Shown: positions 2,589 through 64,000 of the stretch, piece after piece
How the letters are laid out: each line of letters opens with the position of its first letter
Numbering within the stretch: the stretch's first letter is position 1
IMG/VR virus record: IMGVR_UViG_3300042691_042551
Coordinates: 1 to 64,000 of that record
From: a virus
DNA: 64,000 nucleotides
Strand: one strand, 5' to 3'
Notes under the pieces: model-generated
Database searches by the model: none
Seen by the model: only the letters and a program-made list of their open reading frames with translations
Told to the model about the DNA's origin: nothing
Program-made: the position numbers and the translations under genes

Positions 2589-2612
2589 GTGGCAATTATG
2601 CTATTATTTTTT

Positions 2613-2643
2613 AAAAAAGCAAGCGGATTTCTCCGCCTGCTTT
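2613..2643 (-). terminator. intrinsic terminator
   Basis: Minus strand GCAGGCGGA-GAAA-TCCGCTTGC followed by T6, after 2659..3342. Confidence 0.75.
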
Positions 2644-2658
2644 AAATAGAACTATTGA

Positions 2659-3342: not shown

Positions 3343-3401
3343 AATTAAATTAATGGATTAAATTGTATCTATTGGTGGTTAGTGTTCTATTGGTTTTATA
3401 C

Positions 3402-3794
3402 CTAAAACTTAGGTTTTATGGTATTTACCTTTATCTCTGGCATTTCTGTTGACGGGTTTTGAGGCTGATTATCGCCAATAATGTTTTTGCTTTTATTGGT
3501 TTCAGGAGGGATATTTCCCTCTGGCGCTGATTCAACCTTATCGGGTTCATTTTTGGGATAAATGCTTTCTTTAACCTTTGTCATGTAGGTAATGTACTCC
3601 TTGTTTTGGATAACACCGTACCTTGGATAGATTAATAGAAACGTTTTTTCTACTTCCTGACGGGCTTCTTGAATTTTCTGTTCAAGAGTTTTGCCAGGAT
3701 CTTCAGAAAGCATTACTTCTACTTCCTGCTTTTCGTTTGCATAATTGGCCATTGGGATTGTGCGGCCGATGGTGATTTTTGTGATTTTGGTCAT
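3402..3794 (-). CDS. hypothetical protein
   Basis: N-terminus 'GRTIPMANYANEKQEVEV' looks like a common small phage domain; function unknown. Confidence 0.7.
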   Translation of the reverse strand: MTKITKITIGRTIPMANYANEKQEVEVMLSEDPGKTLEQKIQEARQEVEKTFLLIYPRYGVIQNKEYITYMTKVKESIYPKNEPDKVESAPEGNIPPETNKSKNIIGDNQPQNPSTEMPEIKVNTIKPKF

Positions 3795-3877
3795 ACCGTT
3801 TAATAAAATTAGGTATCTATTGTTTATTTATTACTGCCATATAAATAATGGCAATGCTTTTAGCCCATTACAGCTAT

Positions 3878-4330
3878 TTATTTAGCTTTGGGGGTATTAT
3901 TATCGACCTTTTGTGTTTGGCGCTGTCTTTTCATTACCAAAACACCTGTAGGCACATCATTTTTGAGCATACCCATAACAGCTTTAAAGACATTAGGGTG
4001 GACACCGATTTTAATAACCATTGCTTTTTTGAATGAATCGGTAGGTGTAAACCTCACGGGGAATCTTAGTGCGCCCATATCTTCAACGGTTGTGGAGTTA
4101 TTAGCGATATAATATCGATAACCGTAGCCTTTGGCTTGTTCTGCAGTATTAACAATACTGAGTGGGTCGTGGTAGTTGTGCTTTTCAGCAAGCATACTGA
4201 CCACTGCGCCAAGGTATTCCTTGTCTTTAAGGTACTTGTCCTTTTGCTGTTTAAGGATCATTTGTTCATGTTCATGAATCTGTGCCAGTTTAGTTTCGGC
4301 AAACGGTGTGTTTTTAACTTGATTGTTCAT
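3878..4330 (-). CDS. hypothetical protein
   Basis: 150-aa ORF with an A-rich leader. Confidence 0.7.
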   Translation of the reverse strand: MNNQVKNTPFAETKLAQIHEHEQMILKQQKDKYLKDKEYLGAVVSMLAEKHNYHDPLSIVNTAEQAKGYGYRYYIANNSTTVEDMGALRFPVRFTPTDSFKKAMVIKIGVHPNVFKAVMGMLKNDVPTGVLVMKRQRQTQKVDNNTPKAK

Positions 4331-4356
4331 TGTTTTAATTAAAATTTAAAGGGTGA

Positions 4357-4749
4357 TTAATCTATCATGTATTTGGTTGGTATTCTAACGACAAGGTTGT
4401 TTATCTTGTCGCCTTTATACTCGTTTTTGACAACAAATGTGCTATTGAACTTCATAATACACTTAACTTCATCTTCACCGAAGACAACTGTGGCCCATTC
4501 AATACCAATATTGAGGTCTTTTATCAATAATGGTGTGTCACGGTCTTTACTTCTAATGGTTTTTGTAATTGTATCTATGTTTTCTCTAACAATTCTGAAT
4601 ACCTTTTCAATGGCATCATTTTTTTCCAGCTTATTTGTTCCTTTAAGTCGTTTATGTTCCGAAAGGAATTCATCGGTTATAAATTGATAGAGAGTGGCTA
4701 GGAGCATAGCATTTGCATTTGGTCCCATTGTGTTTTTAATTTCTAACAT
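4357..4749 (-). CDS. hypothetical protein
   Basis: 130-aa ORF in the operon-like run. Confidence 0.7.
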   Translation of the reverse strand: MLEIKNTMGPNANAMLLATLYQFITDEFLSEHKRLKGTNKLEKNDAIEKVFRIVRENIDTITKTIRSKDRDTPLLIKDLNIGIEWATVVFGEDEVKCIMKFNSTFVVKNEYKGDKINNLVVRIPTKYMID

Positions 4750-52981: not shown

Positions 52982-53275
52982 ATGAAATTATCTGAATTAA
53001 CAACTAACCTTTTAGAAGAAAACAAAGTAATCCGCAGATCAAATCATGATTGGATTCAAAACGATAAATTTGTTTTTCCGGGCAGATTAAGAGAAATATT
53101 ATTGGCTCCTGAAGTCATTCAGATATGTCAAAACAAAAAAGCACTGATATACTCAAAAGAAGTAACCTTGTTCATCAATGAAAATGGAAAAATCCGCGTG
53201 TGGCAACCTACACAATACGATATAGTAGCAAATGATTGGGAATACGTCCATACAGGTGAATCAGCGTTGGGTTAA
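52982..53275 (+). CDS. Tad2/DUF2829-like protein (candidate anti-Thoeris signal sponge)
   Basis: N-terminal 'KVIRR..W' and C-terminal 'WQPTQYDIVANDWE' match the DUF2829 W-x-P/S-x-x-D-x-L-A-x-D-W signature; TATATTTG box at 52951. Confidence 0.7.
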   Translation: MKLSELTTNLLEENKVIRRSNHDWIQNDKFVFPGRLREILLAPEVIQICQNKKALIYSKEVTLFINENGKIRVWQPTQYDIVANDWEYVHTGESALG

Positions 53276-53447
53276 TGTGCACGATAATATCATTCGCGAA
53301 ATCACTTATATTTACGAATCTGCTAACAAAAAAGAAGTTTTAATTAAAATGGTTAGGTTATCAGATAAAAATGTTGCAACTTTGAAGCTGTCCCAGTTTG
53401 AAGACATGGTAAAGCTTGGTTGTTTTACTCTTTACACTGGTGGATAG
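53232..53447 (+). CDS. small hypothetical protein
   Basis: Last plus-strand ORF before the terminator. Confidence 0.5.
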   Translation: MIGNTSIQVNQRWVNVHDNIIREITYIYESANKKEVLIKMVRLSDKNVATLKLSQFEDMVKLGCFTLYTGG

Positions 53448-54487
53448 TGTCGAAAAGGCGGCTTAACGGCCGCTTTTTTTTTGATCACCGGTTCAATTTT
53501 AGCAAATCGCCATCCAGACTTAGTAGGACCAAATTCATAAACAATAGTAGACTGTATCTGCATTAAACGCCACATTGGGCCAAAATTTGGTTTAGGTGGC
53601 AACTGGCATTTTTTTATGAAGGTATACACTTCATCTTTAGTCCATTCTTTGTCAGCACAATCCCAGCCTTTGGGCAAGCTTTTAGTAATCGGTATAATCA
53701 TTATTTTACGCTCAATAATGTGCTGTATGTGCAGCATTGCATTAAGCCCTTGTACATCGTTATCCGGCCACTGAAGAATTGACCTATCTTTTATTGGCGA
53801 CCAGTCAGTATTATGCACAGCATTGGTGCCACCGATCCATGTTGTTACTACTAACTTTTCTGAACCAATTATTTTCTGAAGGTGATCAGCGCATTTTTCG
53901 CCTTCTACAATGATAATTTTGGCTTCTTTGTACTTTTCTATTAAGTCAAGGTTATATAACGGCCTAGGCAAAGAAAACCCCATAAAACGCCATTCTTGTT
54001 TATTTCCATTGGTTGCATATACGTAGGGCATTATTTCTTTTCCTTCTGGAGTATCAAACCGGCATATATACCCGTAGCTTTTTCCTTCTTTGGTTTTATA
54101 CACCCAAACTTTTGATGGTTTACCATACATGTAATGATTAATTGACTTTACCGGAGATGGTGGAACACACTGTATCCAGTCAGGAGTCTTTTTTTCGATT
54201 ACTTTTTTTTCAAATTTAGGTCCGCTTATGTTATTGCCGGTTATTTCTCTGCAGGCATCAACAAAAGAACTGTTTGTATAGTCCATCACAAACTTGATGG
54301 TATCTCCACCCCATCCGCATGCAAAGCACTTGGCTATGTGCTTGGTTGAATTAATCTTCAATGACGGTTTAGTATCAGAGTGGAATGGACAGATAGATTG
54401 GTATTGAGATCCTTTTTTGCGTACATCTAGATATCGGCCAATTACCTGCTCAATTGGATATGAAGATAAAATTTGCTTAGCATCCAT
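53432..54487 (-). CDS. DNA primase (CHC2 zinc finger + Toprim)
   Basis: CPFH..TKPS...CFACG zinc-binding domain; Toprim motifs IIVEGEKCAD and WPDND..G. Confidence 0.88.
   Translation of the reverse strand: MDAKQILSSYPIEQVIGRYLDVRKKGSQYQSICPFHSDTKPSLKINSTKHIAKCFACGWGGDTIKFVMDYTNSSFVDACREITGNNISGPKFEKKVIEKKTPDWIQCVPPSPVKSINHYMYGKPSKVWVYKTKEGKSYGYICRFDTPEGKEIMPYVYATNGNKQEWRFMGFSLPRPLYNLDLIEKYKEAKIIIVEGEKCADHLQKIIGSEKLVVTTWIGGTNAVHNTDWSPIKDRSILQWPDNDVQGLNAMLHIQHIIERKIMIIPITKSLPKGWDCADKEWTKDEVYTFIKKCQLPPKPNFGPMWRLMQIQSTIVYEFGPTKSGWRFAKIEPVIKKKAAVKPPFRHYPPV
53453..53482 (+). terminator. terminator of the late operon, embedded in the primase 3' end
   Basis: GCGGC-TTAACG-GCCGC followed by T9. Confidence 0.75.
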
Positions 54488-54515
54488 TGATTTTTTAAAT
54501 TTATATCTACATTTG
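54487..54515 (+). promoter_or_regulatory. antisense Bacteroidota-type promoter
   Basis: TTG (54487-89)-N18-TACATTTG (54508-15). Confidence 0.5.
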
Positions 54516-54519
54516 CAAT

Positions 54520-54591
54520 TATCCGTTGCGTTAGGCAGCTAGTTTTTTCATCTTGATTTTACCCCTAGGCTAATAACCTGGGGGTTTTTTT
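54520..54591 (+). ncRNA. candidate ~70-nt antisense sRNA
   Basis: Bounded by the promoter above and a plus-strand terminator; complementary to the primase leader. Confidence 0.4.
54561..54591 (+). terminator. plus-strand intrinsic terminator
   Basis: CCCCTAGG-loop-CCTGGGGG-T7; the U-G pair and U-tail work only on the plus strand. Confidence 0.75.
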
Positions 54592-54976
54592 ATACCTTTT
54601 CCCATTTATTTGTCTTTATGTTAAGCGTATATCGGTCAATAGTGTTTTCGTTAATCTTAACCTCGATATTGTAAAAATCAATACGATAAACGACAATGAA
54701 AAAGTTGTTTTCACCAATAGCGCCCATGTTAAACAACAGTTCTTCAGTATCTATTACTTTGCCTTGAAATGGCATTTCTTCGGGAAATAAACCAAAGAAG
54801 TTTGTTTTTTGCATTGGAAAAAGCGTTTCTACACCGACAAATACAGGCGCTCGACTTACCATTTTGGCTAAAAAATCAGGAACCTCGTTTTCTTTTACAA
54901 TGTAGCATTCGATTGTAGTTTCGGATGATTCATCTACGAGAACTACTTGTTTTGTGAAGTTATTCATGTTATTCAA
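54590..54976 (-). CDS. hypothetical protein
   Basis: Overlaps the helicase stop codon. Confidence 0.65.
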   Translation of the reverse strand: MNNMNNFTKQVVLVDESSETTIECYIVKENEVPDFLAKMVSRAPVFVGVETLFPMQKTNFFGLFPEEMPFQGKVIDTEELLFNMGAIGENNFFIVVYRIDFYNIEVKINENTIDRYTLNIKTNKWEKV

Positions 54977-57149
54977 ATTTAAAATCTTCTTCTATTGGGG
55001 TTTCATCTGTTATATCTGATGAAGTTTTAAGGAATATATCTACTCCAAACTGTTGATGCATTAACTCAGCAAATATGTTTACGTTTCGTTTTGCGTAATC
55101 TTCAGAACCAGTTGCAGCGTTTGACATGTTTCTTTTGCTTTCTATCAACTCAAATATCTTTTCATCAATAGTTTCGGGAGCTATAAAGTAATACGCGTTT
55201 ACCGTGCTTAATTGGCCGTTTCTATGCGCTCTGTCCTCAGCTTGATCATGTTGCGCAGCGGTCCAGTCTAGCTCTGCAAATACAACATTGGAACATACGT
55301 CTTGAAGTCCATCAATACCAGTTGAGGCAGCTCTAATTGATAAGATGATATTCATTTCATTTTGCTGCTGTTGGAATCGCTCAATCATGGTTTGCCGCAT
55401 TTTAGTTTCTGTTTCACCAGTTATTTTTAGAGAACAGTCTAGTTTTTTAGACAGTTCATCAATTATTGCTCGGTGGTGAGCAAAGATGATAACCTTTTCC
55501 CCGTTTTCGTTCATGTTTTTTACAAACTCAATCATACCTTCTATTCTTCCTGTAGCAGCAATCTTCTTTAAGTGATTGATTTTTGTAATAAATTCAGCTC
55601 TCAATATTTTTCTAGCTTGCTCGGCCGTCATTTTAAGCTTTTCATTAAGATAGTCTACAAACTGCTTATTGGCCATATTATAGAGCTCGCGATTTTCGAT
55701 GTCAATATTGATGATTTGCCGTATTTTCTCAGGCAATTCTTTTTGAACGTCAATCTTCATTCTTCTAACCATGCATGTTGATCTTAACTTCATCTGCAAT
55801 TCATCCAGATTTTTACCCGTGTTTTTAGGGCCAACGTACCGACTTAAGAACTTTGGCTTTGTTTCTGCTTTTAAGTACCCTAAAACGTATAGCTGAGGTA
55901 TTAATTCTGCTGGCTGGTTTATCACTGGCGTTCCCGTCAACAAATAGCGGTATTCTTTATTTTCAGATAGCTCTTTTACTATTTTGTACCGTTGAGTTTT
56001 TTCGTCTTTAATGTAATGGCTTTCATCCACTATTATTGACTTAAACATGTGTTTTGCTTTCAACATCTTTTTGGCGTTGTTGTACGAGCAAATGATTACA
56101 TCAGCTTTGTTGGAGTACTCACCATATACGCTAGCGGTAATGTGTGTAAACTTTGTCCATTCTTTCTTCCAGTTATAAACCACTGATTTTGGACATATAA
56201 CTATGCAAGGAAAAGCGTTTTCATGTAGCACACAAGCAATGGCTTGAACTGTTTTACCCAAACCCATTTCATCGGCAAACAATACCCTTTTTTTGGTAGT
56301 TCCATACTTTATGCCGGCTTTTTGATACGGATATGGCTCCAACTTCATATTTTCAATTTGAAACTCTTCACCGGCTTGTAGTGAGGCAATAACCGATTCT
56401 CTGTCACCGTACCATTGATACATTAAGTCTGAATGCAAGGTTATGTCGTGTTGCATTACAAACTCTTTTACTTTATTTTCTAAAGCTTTTGCTTGCCCTT
56501 CGTGGCCCATTATTGTAGGATTAACATACCATAGTTTATTGGTTGCATCCCATCCGGTTTCCATGGATATAGCCTTAAAAGTTTCTTTAAATGCGTCTTT
56601 TAGGTTAAATGGTATTATGAAATAAAAGATTGAATATTCTACGTCACCTCTAGTCATAGTAGATTCTTTCCATACCTGTTTTTCTATGCCTTTCATTCTT
56701 AGCCGTACTATCTCTTCGTTTCTGTTTAACTCCTTATGGCCTATTACAATATCAATAGTGGATGTTTTATCGGCTTTTTCTGAGTACCATTCTTCAAGCG
56801 AGTATCGCTTTATTTTTTTGAAATAGTCTTTTACAGCTTTTGCAAGGTTGCTCAACTCTTCCGGCTTTACTTTATCGTCATAGTTTGGCTCAAGGCCTGT
56901 AAGAAAAGAATTAACTTCTTGAACTTCTTTGTACTGTATTCCGCTTACTAGCTCTACTCTTGCAATATTGAAGCCTTTTTTTCTTTTACTGGCATATATT
57001 AGCTGTTCAATAGTTGATTCCGATATCATATTGCCATGAGGTCGGAGTATGCTTTCAACGTATAGCAAATCTCTTATTGGTTCTTGATACTCTTTGTCTA
57101 GTTTATCAATTAAAACTTCAATATTTTCGTTAATTCTTACTCGATTCAT
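54969..57149 (-). CDS. SNF2-family (SMARCAL1/HARP-like) helicase
   Basis: PYPYQ, ADEMGLGKT, IVDESH, LLTGTP..N, QAEDRAHRNGQ; HARP-like 'GWDATNKLWYV' upstream. Confidence 0.92.
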   Translation of the reverse strand: MNRVRINENIEVLIDKLDKEYQEPIRDLLYVESILRPHGNMISESTIEQLIYASKRKKGFNIARVELVSGIQYKEVQEVNSFLTGLEPNYDDKVKPEELSNLAKAVKDYFKKIKRYSLEEWYSEKADKTSTIDIVIGHKELNRNEEIVRLRMKGIEKQVWKESTMTRGDVEYSIFYFIIPFNLKDAFKETFKAISMETGWDATNKLWYVNPTIMGHEGQAKALENKVKEFVMQHDITLHSDLMYQWYGDRESVIASLQAGEEFQIENMKLEPYPYQKAGIKYGTTKKRVLFADEMGLGKTVQAIACVLHENAFPCIVICPKSVVYNWKKEWTKFTHITASVYGEYSNKADVIICSYNNAKKMLKAKHMFKSIIVDESHYIKDEKTQRYKIVKELSENKEYRYLLTGTPVINQPAELIPQLYVLGYLKAETKPKFLSRYVGPKNTGKNLDELQMKLRSTCMVRRMKIDVQKELPEKIRQIINIDIENRELYNMANKQFVDYLNEKLKMTAEQARKILRAEFITKINHLKKIAATGRIEGMIEFVKNMNENGEKVIIFAHHRAIIDELSKKLDCSLKITGETETKMRQTMIERFQQQQNEMNIILSIRAASTGIDGLQDVCSNVVFAELDWTAAQHDQAEDRAHRNGQLSTVNAYYFIAPETIDEKIFELIESKRNMSNAATGSEDYAKRNVNIFAELMHQQFGVDIFLKTSSDITDETPIEEDFKFE

Positions 57150-57456
57150 CAGTTTTGATTTTTTTTATGTTTCTACTTTCCTTGCGCTCCCAGTCTTTTC
57201 TGTTTTTTTGAATGATGTCTAGAGCGTGTTTTACCTCTAACTTATTGTTTACGTCAGCGATACGATACATTATGTTGTCAAATAAATTAGTTGTTCCATG
57301 AATGTGAAACGCTTTTTTTTGTTCCCGGCTAATTCTTATCGAGTAACCGCTTGGAAACTTTACTTCACAACCTTGAATCAATAGAGAAATCAATGTTGGG
57401 TTTTTGTAGAGCTTAGTTTTCTTTTTTGTCATAATTTTTGGCATAAAACTCGTCAA
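57130..57456 (-). CDS. basic hypothetical protein
   Basis: Lies between the JAB and helicase genes, overlapping the helicase start; exact start uncertain. Confidence 0.6.
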   Translation of the reverse strand: MTSFMPKIMTKKKTKLYKNPTLISLLIQGCEVKFPSGYSIRISREQKKAFHIHGTTNLFDNIMYRIADVNNKLEVKHALDIIQKNRKDWERKESRNIKKIKTDESSKN

Positions 57457-57471
57457 ATCTATACTTTTTTT

Positions 57472-57912
57472 TTATAATACACCTTCATCTCTCATACTAT
57501 AGTAATTATCTTCAGTAATTATTAAGCTATCAAGCAATTCTATATCTAGTAACGCAAGAGCAGCTTTTATTTTACTTGACAATTTTTTGTCAGTATCACT
57601 AGGGTTTTTGTTACCGGATGGATGATTGTGTGCTACAATAACGCTTGATGCATGCGAAAGCAAAGCTGTTTGAGCAATCATTTTTATATCTGCAGTCGTA
57701 TAATCTGTAGCACCGCTACTATGTTTGTGTATAGCAATTACACGATTTGCCCGGTTTAATGCTATTACTAGAAACTCTTCACGCCATAGCATTGTATCTG
57801 AGTTGAAATAATTCCGTATTACCTTGGCTGTATCATCTGAAGATTTTACTATGTATTTTTCGTCTGTTTTGTTTTTCCACTTTACTGTTATTTCGATTTC
57901 TGGGAGTACCAT
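57472..57912 (-). CDS. RadC-like JAB/MPN metalloprotease domain protein
   Basis: 'REEFLVIALNRANRV' and JAMM motif 'AHNHPSG...PS..D', 'LLDSLII'. Confidence 0.92.
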   Translation of the reverse strand: MVLPEIEITVKWKNKTDEKYIVKSSDDTAKVIRNYFNSDTMLWREEFLVIALNRANRVIAIHKHSSGATDYTTADIKMIAQTALLSHASSVIVAHNHPSGNKNPSDTDKKLSSKIKAALALLDIELLDSLIITEDNYYSMRDEGVL

Positions 57913-58619
57913 AATTTTTGAATTTTTAATGTTTTACTATTGATAAATGCACCGTACCAATCGGTTTTATTATCGTTGAATAGAGACCAAACTAATTTGC
58001 CGGCTACTAATGCAACAAACTTATTAATCATTAAATCTTGCCTTTCTAATGCTTCTGCCAGTGAGCAGCTATTTCTGTTTTTTCTATCTACTTTGGTTTT
58101 TAAGTCGGGGTTAAAGTCAAATATTGACTTTGTGTTTTCAGCTTTTAATAGTACCTGGCCGGTTTCTTTGTCATTGCCGGTATCAAGCCACCCAAATAGT
58201 CTATTTTGTTCTATGTAATGAGGATTCATTGCTAATAGACTGTCGGCAAATATTCTAGGCTTTATTCTATCTGTACAGGTAATTATTAAGTTTGGATATT
58301 CTCTATAGCTTTTCTCGCTAAACAAGTTTGGGCTACTTTCCCATTTGTAACCATAAAATCGGTTAATTCGTTCTATCGTTACTTCGGCTTTGTTTCTACC
58401 AATATCTTGTTCGTTGAATAGTTGCCTACCAAAATTTGCTTCAGTCACTACATCTGGATCCATCGCAGCTACTTTTATACCCTTTTTACCTAGCTTTATA
58501 AGGGCATGGTTGATTCTGGCCAACTCCTGCAATAGCATTGAACCGGTGCCACCGCAACCAGCTACAAGTATCTTGGTTTGGTGTATGTCTCTTAAAACAT
58601 ATTTTTTTAGATTTTCCAT
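57888..58619 (-). CDS. PRTRC-type ThiF/E1 ubiquitin-like activating enzyme
   Basis: VAGCGGTG, 'DPDVVTEANFGRQ', 'NKA', 'TCTD', 'WLDTGN...GQV', catalytic 'SCSLAEALERQDLMIN'. Confidence 0.93.
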   Translation of the reverse strand: MENLKKYVLRDIHQTKILVAGCGGTGSMLLQELARINHALIKLGKKGIKVAAMDPDVVTEANFGRQLFNEQDIGRNKAEVTIERINRFYGYKWESSPNLFSEKSYREYPNLIITCTDRIKPRIFADSLLAMNPHYIEQNRLFGWLDTGNDKETGQVLLKAENTKSIFDFNPDLKTKVDRKNRNSCSLAEALERQDLMINKFVALVAGKLVWSLFNDNKTDWYGAFINSKTLKIQKLWYSQKSK

Positions 58620-59242
58620 TTTCTTTTTACCAATAATTCTATTGGAAACTCTTTTTTACCTAGGAGTTTTCCATATTTTGATGTGCTTAGTTTAGTCTTA
58701 TTTGTAAAATGAGTGAATATTGAGTTTTCAAAAACGCATGATTCAACTTCTTTTATGATCTCAGCAATGTTTTGTTTTTTCTTAGGTTCTGCATTTCCAA
58801 AGCAAAATGTATCAGAATTATTAGGGATAGGTCCATAATAGTAGTTTTCTTCACCGCATTCGGCCACAATTTCTAAAATGAATAATTTGGTGTTGTATTT
58901 CCAAATTAGGTCAGGTACCGGATACATTCCAGATTCAATGCCCATATCTACATCAAAATACATCTGTCTTTGTCCTTTTGAGGTTTTCCACCATAATGTG
59001 CATCCATTTCCTTTTGCATTAATTTTTATGAGGTTTTGAGGAATATCTCCTTCTAGTACGGTATTTTCTTCCTTTTTAAGCAATTCAGCAGCATACTTTT
59101 CAAAAGATGAAAGATCTACTGGTTTACCAGCAGATAATTTGCCATCTATAATTCTTCTTTCTTCTATTAATGTTTCATTACCCAAATTAGATCCATAGAA
59201 TATTAAGGCTTTACTTGGTACGTATTTTTTATCGAATTGCAT
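58607..59242 (-). CDS. PRTRC system protein B (prokaryotic E2-like)
   Basis: 'LSAGKPV', 'IPQNLI', 'LWW....R.MYF', 'PVPDLIW', 'GPIPN..DTFCFGNA', 'FENSIFTH'. Confidence 0.82.
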   Translation of the reverse strand: MQFDKKYVPSKALIFYGSNLGNETLIEERRIIDGKLSAGKPVDLSSFEKYAAELLKKEENTVLEGDIPQNLIKINAKGNGCTLWWKTSKGQRQMYFDVDMGIESGMYPVPDLIWKYNTKLFILEIVAECGEENYYYGPIPNNSDTFCFGNAEPKKKQNIAEIIKEVESCVFENSIFTHFTNKTKLSTSKYGKLLGKKEFPIELLVKRKWKI

Positions 59243-60162
59243 AAATTAAAGATTATTTCATCATTGATTAAAGCACATACTTTATCATGATAATCTTCTA
59301 TTTTTACTTTTTTTTCAGGTGTATAAAGATTTCCAACAAGCTTGCTTCCACACATTCCAAAGCCCTCTTCGTGTGATCTAATCTGACTTATTATTTCTTG
59401 TTCTTGCGGTCCATCATCTCTTACAAAAACGTAAGTTAGCGATTCATGTATTGATTCTTCCGAATTTTTTATTGCAAATCCAGCCTGCAGATAAACATTC
59501 TTATAAACCAATTCCAAAACTTTACAAAGCCATTCATATAGTTTAGCTGATTTTACCAATTTAATTTGATCAGAAAACTCTTTTATCGTGCATGGTATTT
59601 TAGGACTAGCAATGTACTTTTTTTTAATAAGTTGCGAATAATACATACTTGCAGCCTTTTTTTCTTCTATAGTAGTTGCGGAAGATAGATTATCATAGTA
59701 TATTTCTTTGGTATAGTCTGCAAAAACATTATCGCTCATGCTATAAAAACCCATTCTTTCAAATATCCATAATGCCATTCTAATTGCTTTGCTATCGGGC
59801 AATCTCATATCTAAGCTTAGTATTGGACCGATTCTTACAATGTGAGGCCTTATTTCAAGTTCTTGGCTAACAGTGATAAGCAGTTCATAGTCAGATTCAA
59901 TAATATCAAAATCGCCTATTTTTTGGTGTGTTAAATCAATTAATTTGGAAATAGCCTCTTGTCGATTCTTGCACTGTTCAAAATCAGTATGCTTTATAAA
60001 TCGATTTTTCAGAGCAATGTTATACAAGATTTCAAGTTTATCGATTGATATGTCTTTTTCTGAATTTATTTCTATTTCATACTTTGGCCTTATGGTAATG
60101 TGCTCGGTAAGCAATCTTTCGCTGTTTCTTTTTGGTCTTCGAACTCCCTGTATGTTTGCCAT
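59203..60162 (-). CDS. PRTRC cassette protein in the protein-F position (function unknown)
   Basis: 319 aa between protein C and protein B, overlapping B; assignment is positional only. Confidence 0.5.
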   Translation of the reverse strand: MANIQGVRRPKRNSERLLTEHITIRPKYEIEINSEKDISIDKLEILYNIALKNRFIKHTDFEQCKNRQEAISKLIDLTHQKIGDFDIIESDYELLITVSQELEIRPHIVRIGPILSLDMRLPDSKAIRMALWIFERMGFYSMSDNVFADYTKEIYYDNLSSATTIEEKKAASMYYSQLIKKKYIASPKIPCTIKEFSDQIKLVKSAKLYEWLCKVLELVYKNVYLQAGFAIKNSEESIHESLTYVFVRDDGPQEQEIISQIRSHEEGFGMCGSKLVGNLYTPEKKVKIEDYHDKVCALINDEIIFNLCNSIKNTYQVKP

Positions 60163-60194
60163 TTTTTAAGCCGTTTTTTAACTTTAATTAAACT

Positions 60195-60224
60195 AAAAAA
60201 GCGAGGAGTTTCCCCCTCGCTTTT
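60195..60224 (-). terminator. intrinsic terminator/attenuator after the Ubl gene
   Basis: Plus strand A6-GCGAGG-loop-CCTCGC-TTTT, giving a U6 tail on the minus strand. Confidence 0.7.
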
Positions 60225-60240
60225 CTTTCTATTGTTACTT

Positions 60241-60450
60241 TTAGCCATTGGTACCCATTTTTGTTTTTATCTCGTAGATAAGCAGTTCCTCGGTTGAGTT
60301 CTTTGAGCGTTGTATAGCTGCAGAAATAAACTCGGGATACTGGTTTGAATAAAATTCTATCACCTGATAAGGCGTTGCGGTCGGGTCCGGATCCGGGAGA
60401 GTTTTATTATCATAGATAAACTCTCGTTTGATAGATTGTACTTTTAGCAT
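60241..60450 (-). CDS. PRTRC system protein C (prokaryotic ubiquitin-like protein)
   Basis: 'REFIYDNKTLPDPDP..TP.QV.EFYSNQYPE...A.I' and C-terminal GTNG (family consensus GTKG). Confidence 0.9.
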   Translation of the reverse strand: MLKVQSIKREFIYDNKTLPDPDPTATPYQVIEFYSNQYPEFISAAIQRSKNSTEELLIYEIKTKMGTNG

Positions 60451-60452
60451 AA

Positions 60453-60899
60453 TTAAAACAAGGTTGGAGTTTCTACTGCTTTTGGTTTTGCTATTTCGGC
60501 TGATGAATCAGTTTCTTCTGCATTATCTTCTTCTTCTTCTTCTTCTTCTATTTTTTGCAAACTAGCGTTTGATGTTGCCGGTTTAGATGGTTGTTTAGGG
60601 TTTCTTTTCTTTTGAAGCTTGTCTTTTTCAGCTTGATCAATTTGGCGAAGGATTTTAATGTTTTCCTCAATGTTGGAAACAATTCCTTTTACCTCGTTGA
60701 TTTTGTCTTTGTTTAGCACGCTAAAAAACTCACTGTCAAGTTCATCTATTGTACCGCTAATAACGATAGGTTCAAAAGCTTTTTCTTTACTTTCAAGCAC
60801 TATCATTACTGATACTTTCTCATTGATTTTTGCAATAGTCATGTTTAGTTTGCCCGCTTCCATTAGCGGCAATACTTGGCTGAAAAAATTAGTTGTCAT
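60453..60899 (-). CDS. PRTRC system protein E
   Basis: 'NFFSQV' N-terminus, 'PIVISGTIDELDSEFF', acidic low-complexity tail; directly upstream of protein C. Confidence 0.85.
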   Translation of the reverse strand: MTTNFFSQVLPLMEAGKLNMTIAKINEKVSVMIVLESKEKAFEPIVISGTIDELDSEFFSVLNKDKINEVKGIVSNIEENIKILRQIDQAEKDKLQKKRNPKQPSKPATSNASLQKIEEEEEEEDNAEETDSSAEIAKPKAVETPTLF

Positions 60900-60901
60900 T
60901 G

Positions 60902-61441
60902 TTATTTATTTAAGCTTTCTATGAACTGTTCTAGCGTATAGACAGTGTAGTTTATTTTTTTATTTCTACCGGTAGGAGTCAGCAAATACTTTTTAGGCGT
61001 AAAAGTGCTCTTAAATAGCTTTGTGGGCTGTACTAGATTAACAAATAGCCCGTAATTGGCCATCAACCATTTTCTATTGAGAGAGTTTAACCTGGTCATG
61101 TTGTGATGATCGTACTCCGGCTTTACTTCAAAAATGCAGGGAGTGCCCTCTTTTGTTTGAAGGAACATGTGCTTTTCCCACTTTTGACCATTCTTTGCTA
61201 CAAATACACCATAAGCCTTTTCCGTAAACTCTATTTCAGCATCAGGCGTATATACGTGTTGCTCTAGTATTGTTTGAACTTCTAAAACAACACCTTTTTT
61301 GCTTTGCCGTTCATATTGACGGGCAAAACCACCGGTAAGTGCATATGTTTTGGGAGCTTCCCAAGATTTAATATAACCGGCTTCTTTTAGTTCTTCTATC
61401 CACCAAGAGAACCATATTTCTTCATTACTTTTAAACTCCAT
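60902..61441 (-). CDS. PD-(D/E)xK endonuclease (DUF1064/resolvase-like)
   Basis: 'FKSNEE', 'YTPD', 'FEVK' catalytic pattern. Confidence 0.75.
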   Translation of the reverse strand: MEFKSNEEIWFSWWIEELKEAGYIKSWEAPKTYALTGGFARQYERQSKKGVVLEVQTILEQHVYTPDAEIEFTEKAYGVFVAKNGQKWEKHMFLQTKEGTPCIFEVKPEYDHHNMTRLNSLNRKWLMANYGLFVNLVQPTKLFKSTFTPKKYLLTPTGRNKKINYTVYTLEQFIESLNK

Positions 61442-61706
61442 CGATTGATTTCATTATGTTTTCTATTGGTTGTTCGTATATTAATGTGATTTTTGATACG
61501 TTGAATGGCGAAGATTGGCGGTTTCTGAATAGGTAAATAGCCGAAGGATTATCTTTTTCATCGTATTTTTCCTTAATGATATTAACCAGTTTGTTTTCGT
61601 ATTGAATATAATCTGCTTGATTAACAATCAATTCATCAGCATCAAATATGAACTCGTATTCCCTTGATATGTTTGTTTCAGTCTTGTTTATTTCTTTTAT
61701 GTGCAT
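61431..61706 (-). CDS. hypothetical protein
   Basis: Overlaps the nuclease gene. Confidence 0.6.
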   Translation of the reverse strand: MHIKEINKTETNISREYEFIFDADELIVNQADYIQYENKLVNIIKEKYDEKDNPSAIYLFRNRQSSPFNVSKITLIYEQPIENIMKSIDGV

Positions 61707-61731
61707 AAAACAAAAGGGGCTTTCGCCCCTT
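61707..61731 (-). terminator. intrinsic terminator
   Basis: Minus strand GGGGC-GAAA-GCCCC-TTTTGTTTT after the SSB-like gene. Confidence 0.8.
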
Positions 61732-61733
61732 GA

Positions 61734-62375
61734 TTAGAATGGTAAATCATCTTCAGGCAATACCTTTGGAATATCCTGAATTGTGTTGAATACCGGAGCA
61801 TTCATTTTTGGTTCGGGATGGTGCTGGTTTTGCTGTGCATTTCCACCTGACTCTTTTTCTGAAGACAATTCAGCAGTGTAGTTTTTGATAACTTTGTTTA
61901 GTCCTGATTGTTCTAGCATCATTGCCATTGTTTCTTCAGTGTATAGCGCAAGAGCTGAACTGAAGGAATGACCAGCCGGAATACCTTCAACTGACATTCT
62001 CTGAATGGCAATATCGGTAGCAGCAATAGTAAGCTTTACCTTATTGTTGCAGATCAGGTCTAATTTGCTGTACTTACTCGAACCGGAGTATCCACCAGGC
62101 TTATATCCATTTGATGGTTTTTGTTCATTTACCGGCTTATAGACAATATTGGTGTATTGTCCATTCTGGCGAACACTTCTCTCAAACTTGGTTTCTACCC
62201 CTACGGTAAACTTATTACACGTTGAAGATGTAGAATGCCATTCACCGGTTTCTGTGCCGTTGTTATACTGCATTGTAATTGAATGGACGTAAATTGTGCC
62301 ACCCATCTTTGATTGGTAGCTTTTTTTGGCTTCTGTGATTTCGGTTGGTGTACCTGTTAGAATTGTTGGTGTCAT
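61734..62375 (-). CDS. putative single-stranded DNA-binding protein
   Basis: OB-like N-terminus, Gly/Ser linker, C-terminal EDDLPF; located in the replication block. Confidence 0.65.
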   Translation of the reverse strand: MTPTILTGTPTEITEAKKSYQSKMGGTIYVHSITMQYNNGTETGEWHSTSSTCNKFTVGVETKFERSVRQNGQYTNIVYKPVNEQKPSNGYKPGGYSGSSKYSKLDLICNNKVKLTIAATDIAIQRMSVEGIPAGHSFSSALALYTEETMAMMLEQSGLNKVIKNYTAELSSEKESGGNAQQNQHHPEPKMNAPVFNTIQDIPKVLPEDDLPF

Positions 62376-62377
62376 AA

Positions 62378-62638
62378 TTAAAAATTGGTATTTGTATCTA
62401 GTTCTTCTATTAATATTTTAGCTACTGCTTCTGGAGTTACTCCAAACGGGCTACAATATTCACCATAATTTTCGGTTTTCAAAACTATTTTATTGTGACT
62501 GTTTACAAAAATACCAGTTATAATATCGGTAGATATACACTGTATTTTGTTATCTTTCATTCCATAAATTTTAGAATGGTGCAATATGTCCAGGGATTGG
62601 CATAAAATTGCTGTCATTTTCTTCTTCAGAGTACTCAT
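62378..62638 (-). CDS. hypothetical protein
   Basis: Fills the gap between DnaB and the SSB-like gene; start uncertain. Confidence 0.55.
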   Translation of the reverse strand: MSTLKKKMTAILCQSLDILHHSKIYGMKDNKIQCISTDIITGIFVNSHNKIVLKTENYGEYCSPFGVTPEAVAKILIEELDTNTNF

Positions 62639-63980
62639 TTGATGAATTATTAAATCTTCTATTTAGTTCTATTGATAGCTCGTTTTCTGCTATTTGTGGA
62701 TCTTCTATGTAGGCAAACGCTTTTTGCCACGTCATTTTCTTGGTAAAAGGACTTCCACCACGAAACTTCTTGAAGATAAACATTATTTTGTCTTGGTCCT
62801 CAGGGGCAACATCTACTTTATCTTTGTAGTAATCTGGTCGAAATAAAAAACAAACCATGTCGGCATCCTGTTCCAATGAACCAGAATCACGCAAATCTTC
62901 CAAATCGGGTATAAAGTCTTCTATTTTAGCCTTTTTGTTATCTGTTCTCTTGGTTATCCTAGATAGTTGAGATAAAGCAATAATTGGCACATCAAGCTTT
63001 TTTGCTAGTCTTTTTAGACGTTGTGATACGTTGCCTACCTTCTCATTCATATTGTTGCCGTTTCCGCCTGTAATGAGTTGCAAATAGTCAATTACTATGA
63101 TTTTTACTCCTTTGTTGATTACTAAGGCTTCGGTTTTGGTTTCAATATCGTCTATCGAGTATATGTTGTCTATCAAATGACCGTGCTCGGGCATCGTTTT
63201 ACAGACCATTTGAAACAATCTCATTTCTTCTTCGCTAAAAGCGCCAGCCGTAATCTTGTTAAGATTAGTATGGTTTATCGCTGAGAATATCCGCTTTATG
63301 ATTTCGGATGAACGCATTTCCAAAGAGAAAAAAGCAAATGGTATTGAACTTTTAAATAGGTAGTTTTGGATCATTGATACAACACATGCAGTTTTGCCCA
63401 TCCCGGGCCGTCCGGCTATAAGTATCAAATTAGTCTTTCCCCAACCACCTGTATGCTGATCTATTGATAAAAAACCGGTAGATACGCCAGGCGTTCTTCC
63501 TTTTTCCTTGTTTATCCTTTCTTCTTCAGCTATTTGCTTTGCAATGGTCCTTGTATCTGTTGGTGTTATGTTCTTTAGTTCAATCATTTCATCAAGCTTT
63601 CCACGTATTCCATTTATCCACTCAAATACATCTTCATTTGATTTATTAGCATTTACCATTGCAAATGCTGTGCTTAGTAGGTCTTTTGCATGAACTTCTA
63701 TTGAGAGTTCTTTTAACAATCTTGTCTCTTTTACAATGAGTTGTTGGCTTTTTTGCTCAAGATAATACTCTTGTATCTTAGCAATTTTTGAAGGTACTAT
63801 TTTTTCAAGAACTTTGTCCTTTTTTAACCATAACAACAATAGTTCGGGAGAGTCAATAACTGTGGCCGATTTGTACGCATTTACAATGGAACTAAAGATA
63901 AGCCTGTTTTCTTCATCTGAAAAATCAGTTTCTTTTATGTACTGAAGTATTTTCAGGTAATTCTCTTCCGATGTTATCAT
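62571..63980 (-). CDS. dnaB: replicative DNA helicase, DnaB family
   Basis: AGRPGMGKT, FFSLEM, VIDYLQL, ALSQLSR, LRDSGSLEQDADMV. Confidence 0.95.
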   Translation of the reverse strand: MITSEENYLKILQYIKETDFSDEENRLIFSSIVNAYKSATVIDSPELLLLWLKKDKVLEKIVPSKIAKIQEYYLEQKSQQLIVKETRLLKELSIEVHAKDLLSTAFAMVNANKSNEDVFEWINGIRGKLDEMIELKNITPTDTRTIAKQIAEEERINKEKGRTPGVSTGFLSIDQHTGGWGKTNLILIAGRPGMGKTACVVSMIQNYLFKSSIPFAFFSLEMRSSEIIKRIFSAINHTNLNKITAGAFSEEEMRLFQMVCKTMPEHGHLIDNIYSIDDIETKTEALVINKGVKIIVIDYLQLITGGNGNNMNEKVGNVSQRLKRLAKKLDVPIIALSQLSRITKRTDNKKAKIEDFIPDLEDLRDSGSLEQDADMVCFLFRPDYYKDKVDVAPEDQDKIMFIFKKFRGGSPFTKKMTWQKAFAYIEDPQIAENELSIELNRRFNNSSNEYSEEENDSNFMPIPGHIAPF

Positions 63981-64000
63981 GCTTGAAATTACCTTTAATT

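What the first reader, a model, noticed from the sequence alone, without database searches (positions are those of the whole stretch)
57472..60899. Ubiquitin-like conjugation cassette (PRTRC type) inside the replication block of a crAss-like phage
Seen: six co-directional genes, in order protein E, Ubl (ends GTNG), 319-aa unknown, E2-like protein B (PN..xC.G), ThiF/E1 (GxGGxG, SCS), JAB protease (HNHPSG..PS..D). Catalytic residues look intact. Known: this set matches the TIGRFAM PRTRC cassette, described mainly from plasmids and integrative elements and of unknown function; related bacterial E1-E2-JAB systems (CBASS Cap2/Cap3, Bil) are host anti-phage defences. Inference: here a phage with no lysogeny genes in this window carries its own writer-tag-eraser set next to DnaB, SSB and SNF2 genes. 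It could be a phage-encoded ubiquitylation system that tags host defence or replication proteins, modifies its own proteins, or decoys host Ubl defences. I do not know of such a system described for Crassvirales, but could not check.
Basis: partly seen in the sequence, partly recalled or inferred. Interest (0 to 1): 0.92.

Follow-up and report, generated by a model that had tools for sequence, protein, structure and literature searches.

The report
Phage PRTRC-type ubiquitin-like tagging cassette
A freshwater phage distantly related to crAss phages carries, among its DNA-replication genes, a stripped-down copy of a catalogued but never-tested gene set for attaching a small ubiquitin-like protein to other proteins, here with an extra protease gene attached; such kits are common in phages, so this is a sound lead, not a first.

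Summary
Six co-directional minus-strand genes at 57472-60899 match PRTRC protein E, the Prok_Ub ubiquitin-like protein (ends in Gly), Prok-E2_D and the PRTRC ThiF-type E1. A 319-aa orphan sits between them and a JAMM peptidase follows. Catalytic residues are intact. The contig is a divergent crAss-like phage. Contigs from four other studies cover the block at 99-100% identity, so it is not an assembly chimera.

The interpretation needs three corrections.
- The peptidase is a short RadC-type JAB, not PRTRC protein A. Of the 80 nearest viral PRTRC records, 69 have no JAB, 7 have a Prok-JAB and 4 have a RadC gene, never adjacent.
- ParB and proteins A and F are absent, so this is the five-gene Bacteroidota-type variant E-C-X-B-ThiF.
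- PRTRC in phages is already annotated (Ralstonia phage Dina) and in print (PMC13366799). At least 351 IMG/VR contigs encode the E1.

This scan had already reported the JAB-less variant in other crAss-like phages. Function is untested. The likeliest mechanism is E1-E2 conjugation of the Ubl during replication. Interest is moderate.

The parts
60453..60899 (-). PRTRC protein E: conserved N-terminal domain of about 95 aa, then a Lys-rich and finally acidic disordered tail. Function unknown; a candidate adaptor or substrate.
   Evidence: PF19556 1e-14; TIGR03741 41.8 bits, above the 37.95 cut-off. In alignment A8, F6, V31, P44, G49, E53 and F58 are invariant in 8 of 8 sequences and the tails vary. 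Atlas neighbours are all PRTRC_E clusters. No PDB relative.
60241..60450 (-). Ubiquitin-like protein (PRTRC protein C, Prok_Ub), 69 aa. It ends exactly at the conserved C-terminal Gly69, so it needs no processing.
   Evidence: PF14454 2.5e-16; TIGR03738 52.8 bits, above the 45.95 cut-off. All 7 Bacteroidota-type homologues aligned end at G(T/V)(K/N)G. The Dina and BgVeeders33 versions carry about 60 further residues.
60195..60226 (-). Terminator-like hairpin (14-bp stem, 6 G-C pairs, T6 tail) in the 78-base gap between the Ubl gene and gene X. It may be an attenuator that gives more E and Ubl than enzymes.
   Evidence: Consensus scan only; function not shown. Most other loci examined have a gap of 35 bases or less or an overlap here, but L198 has about 100 bases; none was scanned for a hairpin.
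59203..60162 (-). Gene X: a 319-aa, mostly helical orphan in the position that protein F (alpha-hel2) holds in canonical PRTRC. A candidate specificity factor.
   Evidence: No family hit. In 1.84 billion representatives there is one full-length homologue, P0123 (298 aa, 24% identity, E 5e-10), and a hit to a repetitive 2215-aa protein that I discounted. BLASTP and hhalign against the equivalent proteins of other cassettes and against Dina F found nothing. The AF2 model is unusable (pLDDT 37.9).
58607..59242 (-). E2-like protein (PRTRC protein B, Prok-E2_D) with candidate catalytic Cys147 (C-x-G-N) and downstream His178.
   Evidence: PF14460 1.7e-10, 41.4 bits, above the cut-off of 25. TIGR03737 scores only 36.9 bits against a cut-off of 131.45. 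In alignment A11, W85, F96, P110, N141, C147, G149, S174 and F176 are invariant in 9 of 9 sequences; His178 is present in 7 of 9.
57888..58619 (-). ThiF-type E1 (PRTRC ThiF family) with a GxGGxG nucleotide loop and Cys185 in the S-C-S motif.
   Evidence: TIGR03736 1.2e-57, 195.1 bits, above the 144.75 cut-off. G21, G23, G24, G26, R65, Q66, K77, D117, S184, C185 and S186 are invariant in 32 of 32 sequences. The best PDB relatives are the UBA6, UBA1 and NAE adenylation domains (3e-10).
57472..57912 (-). Short stand-alone RadC-type JAB/JAMM metallopeptidase whose start overlaps the E1 gene by 25 bases. Possibly a deconjugase for this cassette, possibly an unrelated neighbour.
   Evidence: PF04002 1.2e-35; Prok-JAB scores only 16.2 bits, below the cut-off of 25. 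E45, H95, H97, S105 and D108 are invariant in 32 of 32 sequences. It is the only JAB in the 72.7-kb record.

Best explanation
This is a working copy of the five-gene, Bacteroidota-type reduction of the PRTRC cassette (operon type 6d of Iyer, Burroughs and Aravind 2006). The order is E, Ubl, X, E2, E1. It sits inside the replication operon of a freshwater crAss-like phage, with a RadC-type JAMM peptidase gene joined to its 3' end.

Inferred mechanism, by analogy with E1/E2 chemistry:
1. The ThiF-type E1 adenylates the free C-terminal Gly69 of the 69-aa Ubl.
2. The E1 takes the Ubl as a thioester on Cys185 and passes it to Cys147 of the E2-like protein.
3. The Ubl is then linked to lysines of one or a few targets.
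4. The two fast-evolving, non-enzymatic partners (E and X) act as adaptors or as the substrates themselves.
5. The RadC-type peptidase, if it belongs to the system, removes or limits the tag.

The cassette is co-directional with DnaB, SNF2 helicase and primase in this phage. It sits next to DnaB, SNF2 or sliding-clamp genes in other phages, and next to SSB in a conjugative transposon. I therefore think it acts when the element's DNA starts to replicate in a new cell, modifying a replication-associated or defence-associated protein to the element's benefit.

Shown here: gene identities, intact motifs, recurring context and the reality of the DNA. Inferred: every biochemical step, the targets and the direction of benefit. 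My odds: a real PRTRC-derived Ubl cassette 0.9; it conjugates the Ubl to protein 0.6; its role favours the element rather than host defence 0.45; the RadC-type JAB is a functional part 0.4.
For: - HMM matches are above curated cut-offs for E, Ubl and E1, and above the Pfam cut-off for E2.
- Catalytic and nucleotide-binding residues are kept: E1 32 of 32, E2 Cys147 9 of 9, JAB JAMM residues 32 of 32.
- The Ubl ends at the conserved Gly in 7 of 7 Bacteroidota-type copies.
- The gene order E-C-X-B-ThiF recurs in all six other loci examined: L058, L065, L022, L009, L175 and L198.
- In five of those six the neighbours were replication or DNA-handling genes: a clamp-like gene (L058), DnaB and AAA_24 (L065), SNF2 (L022), a sliding clamp (L009), and SSB plus integrase plus Tra genes (L198). 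In L175 the only such neighbour seen was a VRR-NUC nuclease gene about 2.6 kb upstream.
- Tight overlaps suggest co-translation, including the 25-base ThiF/JAB overlap.
- GC content is uniform with the rest of the phage.
- Contigs from four other studies cover the block and bridge both of its edges. The 8-kb stretch is held by 20 runs of 12 studies.
- The nearest E1 is only 51% identical, so this is not a recent capture.
- In the 4 of 80 viral records that have a RadC gene, it lies on the cassette's strand about 5-6 kb upstream of ThiF (coordinates).
Against: - No biochemical study of any 6d/PRTRC member turned up, and the PDB holds no structure of its E2, Ubl or E. Conjugation itself is an analogy.
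- The E2 scores far below the NCBIfam equivalog cut-off (36.9 against 131.45 bits). Its AF2 model was too poor to confirm a UBC fold.
- X has no detectable relation to protein F or to the X proteins of other cassettes.
- 69 of the 80 nearest viral cassettes have no JAB, and none has RadC directly downstream of ThiF. The JAB here may be an unrelated neighbour, since short RadC genes are common on mobile DNA.
- No target is known.
- All characterised bacterial E1/E2/Ubl systems (CBASS type II, Bil) are host defences, which favours the rival reading.
- The contig is only 57% complete.
Confidence: 0.6

Rival explanations
1. The cassette is a defence or exclusion system carried by the phage. It would tag proteins of competing phages or mobile elements, as Bil tags phage tail proteins, and so protect the infected cell for its owner.
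For: The characterised bacterial E1/E2/Ubl systems (type II CBASS, Bil) are anti-phage (passages read). Defence systems are often carried by prophages and ICEs. Many of the PRTRC-bearing IMG/VR records are classed as proviruses, and one copy sits in a Capnocytophaga conjugative transposon. Iyer et al. 2006 already suggested addiction or protection roles.
Against: PADLOC models gave only Rossmann-level matches of the E1 to Cap2 (best 33.8 bits over residues 10-99) and nothing for the other five genes. In 5 of the 6 other loci examined the cassette sits next to replication or DNA-handling genes, not in defence islands. This phage record has no integrase.
Confidence: 0.2
2. The Ubl is a sulfur carrier of the ThiS/MoaD type. 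The E1 would make a thiocarboxylate used to modify DNA, a nucleotide or a cofactor during replication, not to tag proteins.
For: ThiF-family E1s with small beta-grasp partners ending in Gly do this in thiamine and molybdopterin synthesis (Iyer 2006). The window's E1 matches ThiF, MoeB and TcdA models weakly. A PAPS-reductase-domain gene lies two genes downstream of the cassette in L058, and radical-SAM genes lie near it in L175 and L065.
Against: A conserved E2-like protein with an invariant Cys is always present and has no role in sulfur transfer. There is no rhodanese, cysteine desulfurase or sulfur-acceptor enzyme in the cassette. The E1 profile matches the UBA6, UBA1 and NAE adenylation domains better than ThiF or MoeB.
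Confidence: 0.08
3. It is a partitioning or maintenance module ('ThiF-partitioning cassette'), as the literature on plasmids and temperate phages assumes. It would help a plasmid-like phage genome segregate.
For: The family name and the interpretation in PMC13366799 (passages read). Canonical cassettes are linked to ParB.
Against: No ParB_N domain occurs anywhere in the 72.7-kb record. None appeared among the genes scanned around the six other five-gene cassettes. Nothing in E1/E2/Ubl chemistry points to segregation. The paper itself says the function has not been studied.
Confidence: 0.04
4. The five core genes are a functional cassette, but the RadC-type JAB is an unrelated neighbour with its own job, for example acting on DNA-protein or other adducts, or anti-defence. 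It is not the cassette's eraser.
For: 76 of the 80 nearest viral PRTRC records lack RadC, and none has it next to ThiF. The crAss-like record G003 has no JAB at all. The Ubl is already mature, so no processing protease is needed. Short RadC genes are widespread by themselves (324 homologues at E <= 1e-10).
Against: The 25-base overlap with the E1 gene. In all 4 records with RadC it lies on the cassette's strand within about 6 kb, two of them in records of 69 and 92 kb. Canonical PRTRC does include a JAB.
Confidence: 0.5
5. The block is an assembly chimera or a recent insertion from a plasmid or ICE.
For: PRTRC is best known from plasmids and ICEs. The record is a metagenomic contig.
Against: Contigs from four other studies match at 99-100% and bridge both edges: X11 record 9 spans 53162-57915, X10 record 6 spans 57715-60679, and X10 record 7 spans 60658-64000 and beyond. 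GC is 0.33-0.36 across the block against 0.32-0.41 for the window. The closest bacterial E1 is 40% identical or less.
Confidence: 0.02

Closest known systems
PRTRC system (ParB-Related, ThiF-Related Cassette; NCBIfam TIGR03734-03742), which is operon type 6d of Iyer, Burroughs and Aravind 2006 (PMC1779556). An annotated phage example is Ralstonia phage Dina, NC_055026, gp02-gp07.
   Same: The families of E, Ubl (Prok_Ub), E2 (Prok-E2_D) and E1 (PRTRC ThiF) are the same. The order E-C-(middle gene)-B-...-ThiF is the same. It is carried by mobile DNA. The function is untested.
   Different: There is no ParB. There is no protein A (DUF2016/JAB-N + Prok-JAB). The middle gene has no detectable similarity to protein F (alpha-hel2). 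The Ubl is made in mature form, whereas Dina and BgVeeders33 have a tail of about 60 aa after the Gly. The E2 is below the equivalog cut-off. A RadC-type JAB follows the E1.
Five-gene Bacteroidota-type PRTRC variant, for example in a Capnocytophaga leadbetteri DSM 22902 conjugative transposon (L198), a Prevotella MAG (L175), and IMG/VR phage records L022, L009, L058 and L065.
   Same: The architecture E-C-X-B-ThiF is the same, with a 69-73 aa Ubl ending in Gly and an unannotated middle gene of 370-400 aa. These loci have no JAB adjacent to the cassette. Most (5 of 6) sit beside replication or DNA-handling genes. Two of the records (L058, L065) are also crAss-like.
   Different: E1 identity is only 36-42%. 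The window's middle gene is shorter (319 aa) and not detectably homologous. Only here does a RadC-type JAB overlap the end of the E1 gene.
Bil (operon type 6C), type II CBASS Cap2/Cap3 (6B) and Bub (6E) bacterial ubiquitination-like systems.
   Same: They share an E1 adenylation domain, an E2-like Cys enzyme, a beta-grasp or C-terminal Gly substrate, and often a JAB peptidase. The thioester-relay chemistry is probably the same.
   Different: The protein families differ: PADLOC gave only weak Rossmann-level matches. There is no E1-E2 fusion, no CD-NTase and no CEHH protein. Those systems are host defences, whereas this one sits in a phage replication operon.
The ThiF-domain plus Prok-JAB gene pair of crAss001-like phages (cr106_1 gp069/gp070, Steigviridae).
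   Same: It is an E1-like adenylation domain next to a JAB peptidase in a member of Crassvirales.
   Different: No Prok_Ub, Prok-E2_D or PRTRC_E genes were seen beside it. The E1-like protein is 403 aa and matches the window's E1 only over residues 10-91. It is a different system.

Membership tests
PRTRC (NCBIfam TIGR03734-03742; operon type 6d) | ThiF-family E1 matching TIGR03736 above its cut-off, with the nucleotide loop and conserved Cys | tested here: met
   195.1 bits against a cut-off of 144.75. The G21/G23/G24/G26 loop and S184-C185-S186 are invariant in 32 of 32 sequences.
PRTRC (NCBIfam TIGR03734-03742; operon type 6d) | Small beta-grasp protein C (Prok_Ub) with a conserved C-terminal Gly | tested here: met
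   TIGR03738 52.8 bits against 45.95; PF14454 59.7 bits against 25. G69 is the last residue.
PRTRC (NCBIfam TIGR03734-03742; operon type 6d) | Protein E | tested here: met
   TIGR03741 41.8 bits against 37.95; PF19556 55.1 bits against 26.
PRTRC (NCBIfam TIGR03734-03742; operon type 6d) | E2-like protein B with a conserved Cys and a downstream His | tested here: inconclusive
   Pfam Prok-E2_D is met (41.4 bits against 25), but the NCBIfam equivalog TIGR03737 is not (36.9 bits against 131.45). C147 is invariant in 9 of 9 sequences and His178 is present here. The fold could not be confirmed.
PRTRC (NCBIfam TIGR03734-03742; operon type 6d) | Protein A: JAB peptidase with the JAB-N/DUF2016 domain, next to ThiF | tested here: not met
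   No protein A model (TIGR03735, accession recalled) or DUF2016 family appeared among the hits. The only JAB in the record is RadC-type; Prok-JAB scores 16.2-16.4 bits, below the cut-off of 25. Dina gp03 shows the canonical form.
PRTRC (NCBIfam TIGR03734-03742; operon type 6d) | Protein F (alpha-helical, Pfam alpha-hel2) | tested here: not met
   The 319-aa protein in F's position has no family hit. BLASTP and hhalign against the Dina and BgVeeders33 F proteins found nothing. The equivalence is positional only.
PRTRC (NCBIfam TIGR03734-03742; operon type 6d) | Linked ParB homologue | tested here: not met
   There is no ParB_N match at E <= 0.1 in the 72,690-base record. Caveat: the record is 57% complete.
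Type II CBASS (Cap2/Cap3) and Bil defence systems | Matches to the systems' own protein models; an E1-E2 fusion or a multidomain E1; a CD-NTase or CEHH partner | tested here: not met
   PADLOC gave only E1 residues 10-99 against E1-E2 models (33.8 bits or less) and nothing for the other five proteins. E1 and E2 are separate small proteins.
RadC-like JAB (PF04002), short stand-alone form | JAMM motif E...HxH...S...D in a protein of about 145-150 aa without the RadC N-terminal domain | tested here: met
   PF04002 122.6 bits. E45, H95, H97, S105 and D108 are invariant in 32 of 32 sequences. The nearest homologues are 145-152 aa with PF04002 only.
crAss-like phages (Crassvirales and relatives) | crAss-type capsid, portal, terminase and muzzle proteins, and a giant virion protein | tested here: met
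   The capsid protein matches phrog_11589 and is 21-28% identical to cr6_1, cr4_1 and cr10_1. crAss_MUZ scores 112.6 bits. There is a 5152-aa ORF, not itself scanned. Formal placement in the order was not tested.

The most novel reading that the evidence does not exclude
A virulent crAss-like phage uses its own ubiquitin-like conjugation machinery offensively. Early in infection it would tag a host replication or defence protein, or one of its own replisome parts, to secure replication. This lineage would have recruited a RadC-family JAMM peptidase as the matching eraser. That would give the first function for the PRTRC/6d family and the first defined substrate for a short mobile-element RadC protein.
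Probability: 0.2. Interest if true: 0.85.

Novelty: new variant of a known kind. Interest (0 to 1): 0.5.

Why it matters
Every bacterial E1/E2/Ubl system with a known function is a host defence against phages. PRTRC (type 6d) was predicted in 2006 and none of my paper or PDB searches found any functional study or solved structure of it. It turns out to be widespread on the other side of the conflict. At least 351 IMG/VR contigs encode its E1, and in most phage loci examined the cassette sits beside replication genes. If it conjugates a tag to host or phage proteins, it would be a phage-run ubiquitination-like pathway. It would also be a way into what mobile elements must change in a cell to start replicating. 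This particular copy adds little beyond the others, with one exception. It is the only one of those examined with a RadC-type peptidase fused to the operon, which gives a direct test of whether short RadC proteins are Ubl deconjugases.

Tried and rejected
- Complex prediction of the RadC-type JAB (A9) with the Ubl (A10) gave no verdict (score 0.00). It counts neither for nor against binding.
- The AF2 model of the 319-aa protein from a 2-row alignment had pLDDT 37.9 and was unusable, so I made no fold search.
- The AF2 model of the E2 from a 7-row alignment had pLDDT 57.7 and pTM 0.46. Foldseek against the PDB gave no match at E <= 0.001, so the UBC fold is not confirmed structurally.
- The ESM Atlas gave nothing for the 319-aa protein and only PRTRC_E clusters for E.
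- PDB profile searches for E, E2 and Ubl found nothing meaningful.
- BLASTP and hhalign of gene X against the middle genes of other cassettes and against protein F found nothing.
- blastn of the block against 50,697 phage records gave no match.
- A single-protein IMG/VR scan found no relatives. An alignment was needed.
- The metagenome scan did not recover the 51%-identical relative P0002. Its best hit was 42% identical.
- No RNA holder was listed among the sequencing runs, so expression is unknown.
- The 'SSB' call for 61734-62375 could not be verified.
- I looked for a conserved C-terminal docking motif in protein E. The tails are not conserved, so I make no clamp- or SSB-mimic claim.
- The Python machine was lost. 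I therefore made no trees, no E1-versus-capsid comparison and no statistics on RadC proximity over all 351 contigs. The distances I give were worked out by hand from tool coordinates.
- bioRxiv supplements are closed, and I opened no PMC supplements. They might list PRTRC genes in phage catalogues.

Full report
**What is there**

One search lists six co-directional minus-strand ORFs at 57472-60899.

| Coordinates | Length | Identity | Support |
|---|---|---|---|
| 60453-60899 | 148 aa | PRTRC protein E | PF19556 1e-14; TIGR03741 41.8 bits (cut-off 37.95) |
| 60241-60450 | 69 aa | Prok_Ub / PRTRC protein C, last residue Gly | PF14454 2.5e-16; TIGR03738 52.8 bits (cut-off 45.95) |
| 59203-60162 | 319 aa | 'X', unknown | no match in Pfam, NCBIfam, PHROGs or PADLOC |
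| 58607-59242 | 211 aa | Prok-E2_D | 41.4 bits (cut-off 25); NCBIfam protein B only 36.9 bits (cut-off 131.45) |
| 57888-58619 | 243 aa | PRTRC ThiF-family E1 | TIGR03736 195.1 bits (cut-off 144.75) |
| 57472-57912 | 146 aa | RadC-like JAB | PF04002 1.2e-35 |

The genes overlap by 40, 13 and 25 bases at X/B, B/E1 and E1/JAB.

**Are the enzymes intact?**

- E1: in a 32-sequence alignment, the nucleotide loop (G21, G23, G24, G26), R65, Q66, K77, D117 and the S184-C185-S186 motif are invariant, and the window's protein keeps them.
- E2: in a 9-sequence alignment, C147 (C-x-G-N) is invariant, together with W85, F96, P110, N141, G149, S174 and F176. The downstream His that Iyer et al. noted is present here and in 7 of 9 sequences (paper section read).
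- JAB: in a 32-sequence alignment, E45, H95, H97, S105 and D108 (the JAMM motif) are invariant.
- Ubl: all 7 Bacteroidota-type sequences aligned end exactly at the conserved Gly. The copies in Ralstonia phage Dina and Burkholderia phage BgVeeders33 run on for about 60 residues.

**The host genome**

The window is bases 1-64000 of a 72,690-base IMG/VR virus record. The record is linear and 57% complete by CheckV. Evidence that it is a divergent crAss-like phage:
- It has a terminase, portal and capsid protein of PHROG families 6681, 6547 and 11589.
- Its capsid protein is 21-28% identical to cr6_1, cr4_1, cr10_1, Azobacteroides phage ProJPt-Bp1 and Flavobacterium phages. There were 66 records, all under 60% identity.
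- It has a crAss muzzle-protein match of 112.6 bits.
- It has a 5152-aa ORF.

The cassette lies in one long minus-strand block. The order is DnaB (509 aa in full), four small genes, the cassette, a 108-aa gene, an SNF2 helicase, a 128-aa gene and a primase. The record has no tyrosine integrase and no ParB_N domain.

**Is the DNA real?**

- GC content is 0.33-0.36 across the block, against 0.32-0.41 for the window.
- The 8-kb stretch 55000-63000 is held by 20 runs of 12 studies, mostly freshwater metagenomes.
- I laid contigs of four runs from four studies, none flagged as a possible source. They match at 99-100% and bridge both edges. X11 record 9 covers 53162-57915. X10 record 6 covers 57715-60679. 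X10 record 7 covers 60658-64000 and runs on.

The chimera reading is rejected.

**What family is it, and what is missing?**

The canonical cassette, as RefSeq annotates it in Ralstonia phage Dina, runs E, C, F, B, A, ThiF. There F is Pfam alpha-hel2 and A is DUF2016 plus Prok-JAB. This is operon type 6d of Iyer, Burroughs and Aravind 2006. That type comprises a Ubl with a C-terminal Gly, a helical protein, an E2-like protein with a Cys and a downstream His, a JAB with an N-terminal domain, and an E1.

The window lacks A, F and ParB. Its JAB belongs to a different Pfam family and lies after the E1, not before it.

Gene X is an orphan. In 1.84 billion representative proteins only one full-length homologue appeared, at 24% identity and E 5e-10; I discounted a hit to a repetitive 2215-aa protein. 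Neither BLASTP nor hhalign links X to protein F or to the middle genes of other cassettes.

**The same reduced form elsewhere**

I examined six other loci in detail. All have E, a 69-73 aa Ubl, an unannotated protein of 372-403 aa, Prok-E2_D and ThiF, with no JAB beside them.

| Locus | Source | Neighbours |
|---|---|---|
| L058 | 90.5-kb IMG/VR record, CheckV 100%, crAss_MUZ 70 bits | clamp-like gene; PAPS-reductase gene two genes further on; no RadC or Prok-JAB anywhere in the record |
| L065 | 69.2-kb record, CheckV 100%, crAss-type capsid 168 bits | DnaB and an AAA_24 ATPase follow; RadC gene 3.2 kb upstream of E |
| L022 | IMG/VR record | SNF2 helicase |
| L009 | IMG/VR record | full sliding clamp |
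| L175 | Prevotella MAG | VRR-NUC nuclease gene about 2.6 kb upstream |
| L198 | Capnocytophaga leadbetteri DSM 22902 | between integrase/SSB and TraQ/TraO genes of a conjugative transposon |

In bacterial genomes 84 relatives were confirmed and 80 kept. By my reading of the record titles about 70 of the 80 are Bacteroidota. None exceeds 40% identity to the window's E1. The nearest E1 anywhere is 51% identical.

**How common, and how often with a JAB?**

- IMG/VR holds at least 351 contigs that encode a relative of the E1. 423 stretches matched a pattern and the best 80 loci were kept.
- Over those 80 records, RadC (PF04002) is present in 4: 1 of 50 and 3 of 30.
- Prok-JAB is over its cut-off in 7: 1 of 50 and 6 of 30. 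In the two I checked by coordinates (G044, G076) it lies directly upstream of ThiF, as protein A does.
- So 69 of 80 records have neither.
- In the four with RadC, the gene lies on the cassette's strand about 5-6 kb upstream of ThiF. I worked this out by hand. It is never adjacent.
- The crAss-type capsid model hit 1 of the 80. crAss_MUZ hit 1 of the 10 records tested.

The window is therefore one of at least three crAss-like carriers seen here. It is the only record examined with RadC joined to the cassette.

**What is in print**

- A full-text search for 'PRTRC' found 45 papers.
- From passages of PMC13366799 (BMC Genomics 2026): Burkholderia phage AB2 carries ParB, ThiF and proteins A, B, F, C and E. 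The authors call it a partitioning cassette. They state that the function has not been studied and that, apart from NCBI accessions, it had not been recorded in phages.
- From passages of a 2026 preprint (10.64898/2026.10.01.756045): PRTRC protein B of a Phocaeicola vulgatus prophage is a recurrent mutation hotspot.
- An Elizabethkingia ICE preprint says the function is unknown.
- Passages and the introduction of the Corbett-laboratory preprints equate Bil with 6C and Bub with 6E, and describe Cap2 of type II CBASS. The equation of type II CBASS with 6B is my own, from Iyer's row 6b. I saw no study of 6d there, nor among the listings.
- Searches for crAss + ubiquitin-like + ThiF (7 papers), crAss-like + JAB (29 papers) and Crassvirales + ubiquitin (4 papers) gave nothing relevant by title or abstract.
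- The PDB holds no sequence relative of the E2, Ubl or E.

**Earlier findings of this scan**

A word search returned 77 earlier notes in at least 64 genomes. Several describe the JAB-less five-gene cassette in replication operons of crAss-like or aquatic phages. None mentions RadC. I made these look-ups after my own analysis, and they agree with it.

**How it most likely works**

Shown: gene identities, intact motifs, the mature Ubl end, the recurring order and context, and the tight coupling of the genes.

Inferred from E1/E2 chemistry:
1. The E1 adenylates Gly69 of the Ubl.
2. The Ubl is held as a thioester on Cys185 and passed to Cys147 of the E2.
3. It is then attached to lysines of a target.

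E and X vary greatly between cassettes while the enzymes are conserved. That fits adaptors, substrates or partners locked in an arms race. The Lys-rich tail of E is a plausible acceptor.

A terminator-like hairpin (14-bp stem, T6) lies directly after the Ubl gene, at 60195-60226. It may raise the ratio of E and Ubl to the enzymes. It is only a consensus match. Most other loci examined have a gap of 35 bases or less or an overlap at this position, although L198 has about 100 bases, and none was scanned for a hairpin.

The cassette travels with DnaB, SNF2, clamp or SSB genes in phages and in a conjugative transposon. I therefore favour a role at the start of element replication, to the element's benefit.

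The rivals are:
- A defence or exclusion system. All characterised bacterial E1/E2/Ubl systems are defences. PADLOC, however, gave only Rossmann-level matches.
- A sulfur-carrier role. PAPS-reductase and radical-SAM genes lie near some cassettes. The invariant E2 Cys, however, has no place in that chemistry.
- Partitioning. There is no ParB here.

Whether the RadC-type JAB is the eraser is about even. The 25-base overlap and the loose linkage in four other records speak for it. Its absence from 76 of 80 relatives speaks against it, as does the lack of any need for Ubl processing.

**Verdict**

This is a real, intact-looking, PRTRC-derived ubiquitin-like cassette in a crAss-like phage. It is a variant of a known, untested kind, and it is common in phages. 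The RadC coupling is the only feature peculiar to this copy.

Noticed in passing
window 60195-60226 (minus strand); also 61714-61731: Strong terminator-like hairpins lie directly after the Ubl gene and after the 213-aa gene. The region 53000-64000 has 16 terminator-like sites, against 7.0 +/- 2.8 in shuffles. This may be operon-internal attenuation.
   Followed up: partly
L002 (CrAssphage cr106_1, NC_055871) 2237-3454 and 3458-4669: A classified Steigviridae phage (crAss001-like) has adjacent genes for a Prok-JAB-domain protein (gp070, 28.9 bits) and a 403-aa ThiF-domain protein (gp069, 62.2 bits). No Prok_Ub, E2 or PRTRC_E was seen beside them. This is a different, undescribed E1/JAB pair in Crassvirales.
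   Followed up: partly
window 27173-42631 (+): A 5152-aa ORF, too long for the family-scan tool. It is presumably the crAss-type giant virion protein, but I did not test this.
   Followed up: no
window 61734-62375 (-): A 213-aa protein with no family or PDB match. It ends in an acidic ...EDDLPF tip, which from memory resembles SSB C-terminal tips.
   Followed up: partly
L084 3127-4389 (own record, about 65126-66388, minus strand): A 420-aa AAA_15/SMC_N-type ATPase gene lies beyond the window's end, upstream of DnaB in the same strand block.
   Followed up: no
L058 10744-13147; L009 5847-6971: In two other phage records the five-gene cassette is flanked by a DNA polymerase III beta (sliding clamp) gene. 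L058 also has a PAPS-reductase-domain gene two genes downstream.
   Followed up: partly
preprint 10.64898/2026.10.01.756045 (passages): PRTRC protein B of a Phocaeicola vulgatus prophage is reported as one of two recurrent mutation hotspots during transfer in mice. The authors link this to a diversity-generating retroelement. It hints that the E2-like protein is under diversifying pressure.
   Followed up: no
window 57130-57456 (-): A 108-aa basic protein sits between the RadC-type JAB and the SNF2 helicase and overlaps SNF2 by 20 bases. It has no family match.
   Followed up: no
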